Shown one piece after another: positions 4,997 to 5,338 of a stretch of DNA of 8,189 nt. The stretch is from a virus. Its lineage: Duplodnaviria; Heunggongvirae; Uroviricota; Caudoviricetes. The stretch lies in the IMG/VR virus record IMGVR_UViG_2529292921_000014; one strand, 5' to 3'. The notes beneath the pieces are model-generated. The model worked only from the letters and a program-made list of their open reading frames with translations, was not told where the DNA came from and did no database searches. Positions within the stretch are counted from its first letter, which is position 1, and each line of letters starts with the position of its first letter. A program made the position numbers and the translations under genes.

Positions 4997-5338
4997 ATGT
5001 CCATCATTTTTAATGGACACTATCGTATGAAACACCGGACCTGGATCACTGAAGCTTTACGTCTTCACTTTGAAGAACATTTACCCCGGGTTGTGGCCGG
5101 GCGTCGCCTGGGTGTACCAAAATCAACAGTTTGTAGTATGTTCGTGCGCTTTCGGAGAGCTGGCCTTTCGTGGCCTTTGCCCGCAGGCATGTCGGAGCAG
5201 GAACTTGATGCCTGCCTTTACGGACAATTTTCCACGGTACCAGTCGTACGTCCTGAAAGCACCGTTATATCCGAAGCCCCCGTGGTAAAAAACGTCCCCG
5301 GCGGCCCAACTTCCCTTATGAGTTTAAAATCGCCTTAG
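4997..5338 (+). CDS. IS66-family orf, helix-turn-helix-like; probably the N-terminal part of TnpA displaced into another frame
   Basis: 113-aa frame-2 ORF with an HTH-like segment (VAGRRLGVPKSTVCSMFVRFRRAG). Its last 27 codons overlap the open frame-1 region that carries the conserved TnpA core. The two frames meet at an A6 run near 5286-5291. Confidence 0.5.
   Translation: MSIIFNGHYRMKHRTWITEALRLHFEEHLPRVVAGRRLGVPKSTVCSMFVRFRRAGLSWPLPAGMSEQELDACLYGQFSTVPVVRPESTVISEAPVVKNVPGGPTSLMSLKSP

What the first reader, a model, noticed from the sequence alone, without database searches (positions are those of the whole stretch)
5257..5338. IS66 tnpA is split across two frames at an A6 run: frameshift mutation, read error, or -1 slippery site
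The conserved TnpA core (KKRPRRPNFPYEFKIALVEQSLQPGACVAQIARENGIN...) is open in frame 1 from 5257 but has no ATG before the GTG at 5338, which would cut into the conserved N-terminal motif. An upstream 113-aa HTH-containing ORF (4997-5338) in frame 2 overlaps it by 82 nt. The two frames meet at G GTA AAA AAC GTC (A-run about 5286-5291). One additional A would give a single continuous ORF of about 225 aa from 4997 to 5673 (...EAPVVKKRPRRPNFPYEFK...). The heptamer A AAA AAC read in the upstream frame also has the X XXY YYZ form of a -1 slippery site, so a programmed frameshift producing a fusion is conceivable, though in E. coli A AAA AAG is the efficient form and no downstream structure was checked. 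Together with the two J indels this makes three frame breaks in 8 kb, two of them at homopolymer runs, which raises the possibility of systematic homopolymer errors in the underlying assembly.
Basis: partly seen in the sequence, partly recalled or inferred. Interest (0 to 1): 0.55.

Follow-up and report, generated by a model that had tools for sequence, protein, structure and literature searches.

The report
One-base loss breaks IS66 tnpA
A mobile-element accessory gene looks split in two only because one A is missing from a run of seven, most likely a homopolymer sequencing error in a 2012-era draft assembly or otherwise a trivial inactivating mutation, and it is not a programmed frameshift.

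Summary
An ISCro1-like IS66-family element (4944-7641, 8-bp target duplication GGACACGC) sits inside the prophage lom gene. Its tnpA is split at an A6 run (5287-5292) into a 113-aa ORF and a downstream open frame.

The native state is A7 and one 225-aa ORF.
- A reference copy is identical over 770 nt except for the extra A.
- In complete E. coli genomes, 1624 of 1857 matching records carry the exact A7 sequence; 10 carry A6 and 4 carry A8.
- RefSeq marks the three A6 copies I inspected as "frameshifted" pseudogenes.
- Relatives in about ten enterobacterial genera encode one continuous two-domain TnpA.
- One NCBIfam model spans both halves.

A programmed frameshift is not supported. The Lys-Lys codons behind the A-run are not conserved, no downstream RNA structure exists, and invariant residues are lost from both products.

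The window is a whole contig of the E. coli DEC1B draft assembly. Another contig of that assembly overlaps it across the same lom-IS junction and reads A7. A6 also recurs in other early-2010s drafts, one of which differs from 116 finished genomes only by A7. I favour a homopolymer undercall (about 0.65) over a real mutation (about 0.33). Ordinary, low interest.

The parts
4757..4943 (+). 5' part of the prophage lom (Ail/Lom outer-membrane protein) gene, interrupted by the IS
   Evidence: ORF list. Pfam Ail_Lom on the called 67-aa product. Removing the IS and one target-duplication copy restores a 600-nt, 199-aa lom. lom is 600 nt and uninterrupted in E2348/69.
4936..4943 (.). Left copy of the 8-bp target-site duplication GGACACGC
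   Evidence: Identical 8-mer at 7642-7649. The E2348/69 lom has a single copy.
4944..7641 (+). ISCro1-like IS66-family insertion sequence, 2698 bp here and 2699 bp in the reference copy. Imperfect terminal inverted repeats start with GTAA.
   Evidence: Identity to the O103:H2 12009 copy begins at 4944. Compared with the 2699-bp reference there are 3 mismatches and 1 gap. Terminal repeat alignment. PGAP names.
4997..5338 (+). Upstream tnpA fragment as encoded (113 aa). Codons up to the first Lys codon of the A-run (AAA, 5288-5290; Lys99) are native; the C-terminal 14 residues (NVPGGPTSLMSLKSP) are out-of-frame read-through. The true start may be the ATG at 5027.
   Evidence: NF038385 positions 1-80 match residues 13-97 at 97.2 bits, below the 150-bit cut-off. 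Many homologues start at the second Met.
5287..5292 (+). A6 run, the site of the one-base loss relative to the native A7
   Evidence: Complete-genome records: exact A7 in 1624, A6 in 10, A8 in 4, out of 1857. Plasmids: at most 6 of 1026 records carry A6.
5293..5673 (+). Downstream tnpA portion in frame 1 (open from 5257), carrying the HTH_Tnp_1 core. The only candidate starts are GTG 5338 (no Shine-Dalgarno) and GTG 5368 (GGAG 5 nt upstream), and both cut into the domain.
   Evidence: Pfam PF01527 at 8.5e-15. NF038385 positions 99-189. Start-codon contexts. Gene callers chose 5368.
5673..6020 (+). tnpB (IS66 accessory protein), intact. Its ATG overlaps the tnpA stop (TGATG).
   Evidence: NF033819 at 5.2e-38. 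Overlap shown.
6040..7611 (+). tnpC, the IS66-family DDE transposase, intact at 523 aa
   Evidence: NF033517 at 1.1e-142. Pfam LZ_Tnp_IS66, zf-IS66, DDE_Tnp_IS66 and DDE_Tnp_IS66_C.
7642..7649 (.). Right copy of the target-site duplication GGACACGC
7650..8062 (+). 3' part of the interrupted lom gene

Best explanation
The split is a non-native one-base shortening (A7 to A6) of a homopolymer inside the single tnpA gene of an ISCro1-like IS66-family element inserted in prophage lom. Natively tnpA encodes one roughly 225-aa, two-domain accessory protein: an N-terminal domain of about 100 aa joined to the HTH_Tnp_1 core. tnpA is translationally coupled to tnpB and followed by the DDE transposase gene tnpC. 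In this contig (the whole of AIEW01000008.1, E. coli DEC1B draft) the missing A most likely reflects a homopolymer undercall or consensus error in the draft assembly, not the state of the DNA. The real element would then be an ordinary intact IS. Shown: A7 with one ORF is the native state, A6 is rare, recurrent and flagged as a pseudogene, and the same assembly holds an A7 version of the same junction. Inferred: that the A6 call here is an error rather than a mutation.
For: (1) A reference copy is identical over 770 nt except for A7 and is annotated as one 225-aa tnpA.
(2) In complete E. coli genomes the exact A7 81-mer is in 1624 of 1857 matching records, A6 in 10 and A8 in 4. On plasmids of Escherichia, Salmonella, Klebsiella, Shigella and Citrobacter, A6 is in at most 6 of 1026 records.
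(3) PGAP marks the A6 copies I looked at as 'tnpA, frameshifted'. Two of the three lie beside other frameshifted genes, and one carries a second homopolymer deletion inside the IS.
(4) Full-length single-ORF homologues (about 205-230 aa, 56-90% identity) occur in Salmonella, Pantoea, Erwinia, Klebsiella, Yersinia, Serratia, Edwardsiella and others. NF038385 spans both halves, scoring 295.8 bits intact against 97.2 and 152.5 for the halves.
(5) Contig AIEW01000067.1 of the same assembly overlaps window 4238-7641, including the same lom-IS junction and the same IS haplotype. It reads A7 and has its own 1-bp deletion in tnpC where the window is intact, so the two copies of the IS differ by two indels and no substitution.
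(6) The exact 113-aa product was found on only 23 contigs. The seven NCBI places among the ten shown are draft assemblies with early accession numbers (AIFD, AIEY, AIGH, AFAI twice, AFAE, AQEK); the other three are metagenome contigs whose IS genes carry further breaks. A6 sits on different IS haplotypes and at different insertion sites.
(7) For one of those drafts (AIGH), the orthologous insertion exists in 116 complete genomes. The listed best hits span 752 nt against the 751-nt query, none is 100% identical, and the one aligned (E2865) differs only by A7.
Against: No reads were available, so error versus mutation is not settled. At least three further DEC1B contigs also read A6 (102-aa partial products ending ...VVKNVPG), which could mean a real A6 subfamily of copies in this strain. 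The window belongs to a decaying prophage whose J gene carries a real frameshift shared with E2348/69, so real indels do accumulate here. The substitution at 4456 between the two overlapping contigs involves two naturally occurring alleles, so the contigs may represent two real loci rather than one locus assembled twice. That the DEC genomes were made with 454 chemistry is my recollection; the paper could not be read.
Confidence: 0.65

Rival explanations
1. The A6 is a real replication-slippage deletion in this IS copy. tnpA is then a pseudogene. The 113-aa product keeps only the N-terminal domain. Any product started at GTG 5338 or 5368 lacks the invariant RR..F...FK motif and part of the HTH. 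The copy could move only if TnpA is supplied in trans by A7 copies in the same genome.
For: Homopolymers are natural indel hotspots. A6 and A8 variants both occur at low frequency in finished genomes. Several DEC1B contigs read A6. The surrounding prophage carries at least one demonstrably real frameshift. Invariant residues R102, R103, F106, F110 and K111 are absent from both products, so a real A6 would be inactivating. tnpB, tnpC, the terminal repeats and the target duplication are intact, as expected for a very recent lesion.
Against: A6 is in about 0.5% of records in finished genomes and plasmids, yet among the places shown it comes mostly from a handful of early draft assemblies, in unrelated lineages and on different IS haplotypes. 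The same assembly gives A7 for the same junction. An orthologous insertion reads A7 in finished genomes: no 100% match among 116, and the one aligned differs only by A7. The difference pattern between the two DEC1B versions of the IS (two indels, no substitution) is not what real divergence usually looks like.
Confidence: 0.33
2. The two-frame layout is functional. A -1 ribosomal frameshift on A AAA AAC, or RNA-polymerase slippage on the A-run, fuses the 113-aa ORF to the downstream frame and yields full-length TnpA at a regulated low level, as in IS1 and IS3 elements.
For: The heptamer A AAA AAC is in the correct phase in the upstream frame, and a -1 shift there would give the native protein sequence apart from the Lys/Asn at the shift site. 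Frameshift-regulated fusion proteins are well known in other IS families (mentioned for IS3 and IS5 members in PMC3281130).
Against: The arrangement is not conserved. More than 99% of close copies carry A7 and one ORF, and all sampled relatives in other genera encode one ORF. The Lys-Lys pair behind the run is replaced by RK, QK, SR, YR or HK in relatives, so the run itself is not conserved. The 80 nt downstream fold no better than shuffled sequence (z = +1.13). I see no Shine-Dalgarno-like stimulator upstream in the sequence. From my own knowledge, A AAA AAC is a weak shift site in E. coli, and six A's are well below the 9 or more used for transcriptional slippage in IS elements. Annotation pipelines treat A6 copies as pseudogenes.
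Confidence: 0.02

Closest known systems
ISCro1-like IS66-family element of E. coli; tnpA product WP_001339397.1 (for example in O103:H2 strain 12009, NC_013353.1)
   Same: The same element. The tnpA stretch compared (770 nt) is identical apart from the A-run, and the whole 2699-bp IS differs by 3 substitutions and 1 gap. It has the same tnpA-tnpB-tnpC order, the same ends and an 8-bp target duplication.
   Different: The window has A6 instead of A7 at 5287-5292, so tnpA is read as two ORFs. The insertion site in lom was found only in the DEC1B assembly.
RefSeq 'tnpA, frameshifted' pseudogenes with the same A6 (for example E. coli MBT-5 CP058682.2, E7476 CP035817.1, MFDS1016424 CP106924.1)
   Same: The identical 80-nt sequence around A6, and the same consequence for the reading frame.
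   Different: They sit at different insertion sites and on different IS haplotypes, so they are independent events or errors.
Programmed -1 frameshifting in IS1/IS3-family transposase genes and in dnaX (A AAA AAG type)
   Same: Two overlapping frames, a heptamer of X XXY YYZ form in phase, and a fusion product that would be the functional protein.
   Different: Here the two-frame layout is a rare variant of a one-ORF gene. The heptamer ends in C, there is no stimulatory structure, and the site is not conserved.
Short-type IS66 TnpA (NCBIfam NF047595, ISRel24 type, 113 positions)
   Same: The downstream half (residues 102-219 of the intact protein) matches this model.
   Different: The ISCro1 subgroup carries an extra conserved N-terminal domain of about 100 aa on the same polypeptide (NF038385). 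It is not a separate upstream gene.

Membership tests
IS66-family insertion sequence (ISCro1-like) | Gene order tnpA, tnpB, tnpC on one strand, with the tnpA stop overlapping the tnpB start | tested here: met
   ORFs at 4997-5673 (broken), 5673-6020 and 6040-7611. TGATG overlap.
IS66-family insertion sequence (ISCro1-like) | TnpC DDE transposase and TnpB matching the family models | tested here: met
   NF033517 at 475.7 bits (cut-off 180). NF033819 at 128.9 bits (cut-off 50). Pfam DDE_Tnp_IS66 and TnpB_IS66.
IS66-family insertion sequence (ISCro1-like) | Imperfect terminal inverted repeats beginning GTAA, and an 8-bp target-site duplication | tested here: met
   The ends read GTAACCGGCTC... 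and GTAAGCGACTC..., with 17 of the first 26 positions matching. GGACACGC is duplicated, and excision restores a 199-aa lom. That GTAA ends and 8-bp duplications define the family is from my own knowledge.
NF038385 IS66_access_TnpA (two-domain TnpA equivalog) | One polypeptide covering the whole 190-position model above the 150-bit cut-off | tested here: not met
   As encoded, the upstream ORF scores 97.2 bits (positions 1-80) and the downstream ORF 152.5 bits (positions 99-189). With one A restored (the reference copy) the score is 295.8 bits over positions 1-189.
Programmed -1 ribosomal frameshift site | Slippery heptamer X XXY YYZ in phase with the upstream frame | tested here: met
   A AAA AAC at 5287-5293, with codons GTA AAA AAC.
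Programmed -1 ribosomal frameshift site | Stimulatory element: a downstream hairpin or pseudoknot, or an upstream Shine-Dalgarno-like sequence | tested here: not met
   5294-5373 folds at -18.6 kcal/mol against a shuffle mean of -21.8 (z = +1.13). No GGAGG-like motif in the 20 nt upstream.
Programmed -1 ribosomal frameshift site | The two-frame arrangement and the slippery site are conserved among copies and relatives | tested here: not met
   A7 with one ORF in 1624 of 1857 records against 10 with A6. Single ORFs in all 23 aligned relatives, with KK replaced by RK, QK, SR, YR or HK.
Programmed -1 ribosomal frameshift site | A measured frameshift product | not testable with these tools
   Needs a reporter assay or mass spectrometry.
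Transcriptional-slippage site in IS genes | An A or T run long enough for efficient RNA-polymerase slippage (about 9 or more; my own knowledge, Baranov et al. 2005) | tested here: not met
   The run is 6 A here and 7 in native copies.

The most novel reading that the evidence does not exclude
The A-run may be more than a passive hotspot. In intact copies the phase is GTA AAA AAA, a perfect A AAA AAA heptamer. A -1 shift or RNA-polymerase slippage there would give a 108-aa protein with only the N-terminal domain, which could act as a transposition regulator. In A6 copies the same slipperiness could leak some full-length TnpA. A6 and A8 variants would then be by-products of a functional slippery run in the very successful E. 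coli ISCro1 lineage.
Probability: 0.03. Interest if true: 0.4.

Novelty: already known. Interest (0 to 1): 0.07.

Why it matters
It matters little biologically. The element, its single-ORF tnpA and the frameshifted variant are already recognised by standard annotation. The practical value is for quality control. This window is a small redundant contig from an early draft assembly, and its frame breaks should not be read as recoding signals. The case also shows that a heptamer of slippery form inside a homopolymer indel is not evidence for programmed frameshifting unless the two-frame layout is conserved. If the A6 were real, it would only mean that this IS copy depends on TnpA from sister copies.

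Tried and rejected
- My only scan of the species-representative genomes, with a pattern allowing A6 to A8, returned one 838-bp Escherichia contig. It gave no cross-species view; the protein search and the plasmid search served instead.
- A search for the exact lom-IS junction in complete E. coli genomes found no true match. The source was found only by exact protein look-up.
- The phage collection held no record with the insertion.
- I tried to read the DEC collection genome announcement to confirm the sequencing chemistry. It is not held under its DOI or its PMC id, so '454' remains my recollection.
- Searching for the N-terminal domain among solved structures gave only a chance hit (E = 0.26), and Pfam gave nothing.
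- The Rfam scan of the whole window found no family. The promoter and terminator scan of 4900-5720 found nothing above shuffles.
- Literature searches on ISCro1, IS679 and IS66 gave no functional data on TnpA. That all three IS679 genes are needed for transposition (Han et al. 2001) is from memory and unverified here.
- I rejected the idea that the upstream ORF is a separate gene, as in a four-ORF IS66 variant. All relatives and a curated model have both halves on one polypeptide.

Full report
**What is in the window**

The window carries lambda-like tail genes (K, I, J and lom). They are 99.1% identical to a prophage of EPEC strain E2348/69.

lom is interrupted at 4943/4944 by a 2698-bp element.
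- Its ends are imperfect inverted repeats starting with GTAA.
- It is flanked by a perfect 8-bp duplication, GGACACGC, at 4936-4943 and 7642-7649.
- Removing the element and one duplication copy restores a 600-nt, 199-aa lom.

The element encodes a broken tnpA, tnpB (5673-6020) and tnpC (6040-7611).
- tnpB scores 128.9 bits on NF033819 and tnpC 475.7 bits on NF033517.
- RefSeq names the same element "IS66-like element ISCro1 family".

**Checking the observation**

- An ATG ORF runs 4997-5338 (113 aa).
- Frame 1 is open from 5257 to the stop at 5671-5673, and its first ATG/GTG/TTG start codon is GTG 5338.
- The two frames overlap by 82 nt.
- The A-run is A6 at 5287-5292, one base to the right of the quoted position.
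- In the upstream frame the codons are GTG GTA AAA AAC GTC.
- One extra A gives a continuous 225-aa ORF.

**What the native state is**

- *Reference copy.* A copy in E. coli O103:H2 12009 is identical over the 770 nt compared, except that it has A7. It is annotated as one 678-nt tnpA, product WP_001339397.1.
- *Complete E. coli genomes.* An 80/81/82-nt probe round the run matches 1857 records, at 4384 places in 1313 genomes. The exact A7 version is in 1624 records, the exact A6 version in 10 and A8 in 4.
- *Plasmids.* On plasmids of Escherichia, Salmonella, Klebsiella, Shigella and Citrobacter, at most 6 of 1026 records have A6.
- *Annotation.* PGAP labels the three A6 copies I inspected "tnpA, frameshifted".
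- *Relatives.* Proteins of about 205-230 aa covering 94-100% of the 225-aa sequence at 56-90% identity occur in Salmonella, Pantoea, Erwinia, Klebsiella, Yersinia, Serratia, Edwardsiella, Kosakonia, Enterobacter and Symbiopectobacterium. All are continuous through the junction.
- *Family model.* The curated model NF038385 (IS66_access_TnpA, 190 positions) covers both halves. The intact protein scores 295.8 bits. The window's upstream ORF scores 97.2 bits on positions 1-80, below the 150-bit cut-off, and the downstream ORF 152.5 bits on positions 99-189.

The upstream ORF is therefore not a separate gene. It is the N-terminal domain of a two-domain TnpA. The C-terminal half corresponds to the short TnpA of other IS66 elements (NF047595; Pfam HTH_Tnp_1).

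**Is it a recoding site?**

The heptamer A AAA AAC is in phase, but every other criterion fails.
- The two-frame layout is a variant found in under 1% of records.
- The Lys-Lys pair that produces the A-run is replaced by RK, QK, SR, YR or HK in relatives, including ones about 90% identical. So the run is not conserved.
- The 80 nt downstream fold less well than shuffled controls (z = +1.13).
- No Shine-Dalgarno-like stimulator is visible upstream.
- Rfam finds nothing in the window.

As encoded, neither product contains the invariant residues R102, R103, F106, F110 and K111.
- GTG 5338 has no ribosome-binding site.
- GTG 5368 has a GGAG 5 nt upstream, but starting there removes 23 residues of the HTH_Tnp_1 match.

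If real, the lesion would be inactivating.

**Mutation or artefact?**

Exact protein look-ups show that the window is the entire contig AIEW01000008.1 (8189 bp) of GCA_000249075.2, the E. coli DEC1B draft.

*A second contig of the same assembly.* AIEW01000067.1 overlaps window 4238-7641. That stretch holds the J 3' end, the lom 5' part with the same junction, and the whole IS with the same three haplotype-marking substitutions. There are three differences.
- A substitution at 4456, where both alleles occur in other phages.
- A7 instead of A6.
- A missing G at window position 7404, which breaks tnpC in that contig while the window's tnpC is intact.

Within the IS the two versions therefore differ by two 1-bp indels and no substitution. 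Contig 67 leaves the right end of the IS into a different flank with no target duplication. It is either chimeric or the product of an IS-mediated rearrangement.

*Other A6 copies.*
- Three further DEC1B contigs end 10 nt after the run and read A6.
- The exact 113-aa product was found on only 23 contigs. Seven of the ten places shown are NCBI draft assemblies with early accession numbers: AIFD, AIEY, AIGH, AFAI (twice), AFAE and AQEK. The other three are metagenome contigs whose IS genes carry further breaks.
- A6 sits on different IS haplotypes and at different insertion sites, so it arose or was called independently many times.
- For the AIGH copy, the orthologous insertion is present in 116 complete genomes. 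No hit is 100% identical, the listed best hits span 752 nt against the 751-nt query, and the one I aligned (E2865) differs only by A7.
- One finished assembly with A6 also has a second homopolymer deletion in the IS, and two of the three inspected lie beside other frameshifted genes.

*Weighing.* This concentration of a variant that is otherwise at about 0.5% of records in a batch of early drafts, together with the conflicting call inside one assembly, makes a homopolymer undercall the more likely explanation. I put it at about 0.65.

A real slippage deletion stays possible, at about 0.33. Several DEC1B contigs agree on A6, and the prophage does carry a real frameshift: the G6 run in J at 2915-2920 is shared with three independent E2348/69 assemblies. 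The other J break is a private +T at 2281 outside any homopolymer. So "systematic homopolymer error" does not explain all three breaks.

I recall that the DEC genomes were sequenced with 454 chemistry, but I could not read the paper.

**Comparison with known systems and verdict**

This is a known IS of a known family with a known gene layout. The A6 variant is already handled by annotation pipelines as a frameshifted pseudogene. It resembles IS1/IS3-type frameshift sites only in the form of the heptamer.

Novelty: already known. Interest: low.

The one speculative reading left open concerns intact copies. Their in-phase A AAA AAA heptamer might give a 108-aa N-domain-only product by slippage. 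The lack of conservation of the run argues against it, and I put it at about 0.03.

Noticed in passing
window 971-4687 (J), breaks at 2281 and 2915-2920: J is read in three pieces. Relative to the intact J of strain A25, the window has an extra T at 2281 (private to this contig, not in a homopolymer) and G6 instead of G7 at 2915-2920. The G6 is shared with three E2348/69 assemblies, so it is real and inherited. The two changes cancel, leaving about 636 nt out of frame. The A8 at 3605-3612 is the intact state; E2348/69 has A7 there and so carries its own second frameshift.
   Followed up: yes
window 4238-7641 versus L020 (AIEW01000067.1) 1-3404: The same draft assembly contains this 3.4-kb stretch twice, with 3 differences. 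Contig 67 exits the right end of the IS into unrelated sequence (AATTAATGGACTC...) with no target duplication. It is either a chimeric join through a repeated IS or a real IS-mediated rearrangement next to a second J-lom copy.
   Followed up: partly
window 5303 (about 10 nt after the A-run): Three other DEC1B contigs end at the same codon just past the A-run, giving 102-aa partial products ...VVKNVPG. This suggests the assembler broke at or near this homopolymer. The contigs could not be fetched.
   Followed up: no
window 4997-5290 (N-terminal domain of TnpA): The ISCro1 subgroup of IS66 TnpA has a conserved extra N-terminal domain of about 100 aa (motifs LRLHFEE, GxPKxTV, FVRFRxAGLSWPLP). It has no Pfam hit and no solved-structure relative. 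Short-type IS66 TnpA (NF047595) lacks it. From memory, the sequence resembles the HTH region of IS21 IstA; I did not test this.
   Followed up: partly
window 5368-5673 (101-aa product): The exact 101-aa product starting at GTG 5368 is recorded on 387 contigs, including complete genomes. That is far more than the 23 contigs read with the 113-aa A6 product. Disruptions of the N-terminal half of tnpA other than A6 must therefore be commoner.
   Followed up: no
L001 3677-3686 (intact copy), equivalent to window 5285-5293: In intact copies the run is in phase as GTA AAA AAA, a perfect A AAA AAA heptamer. A -1 shift would give a 108-aa truncated product ending KKTSPAAQLPL. The run is not conserved in relatives.
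   Followed up: partly
window 4456: An A/T substitution (Arg or Ser in J) distinguishes the window from contig 67. Phage cdtI shares the window's A; E2348/69 and A25 share T. Both are natural alleles.
   Followed up: partly
window 5673-6020 and 5754-5933 (minus strand): In the gene calls on record for this contig and for contig 67, tnpB was not called. A 59-aa antisense ORF (5754-5933) was called instead, although tnpB is intact and matches NF033819.
   Followed up: no
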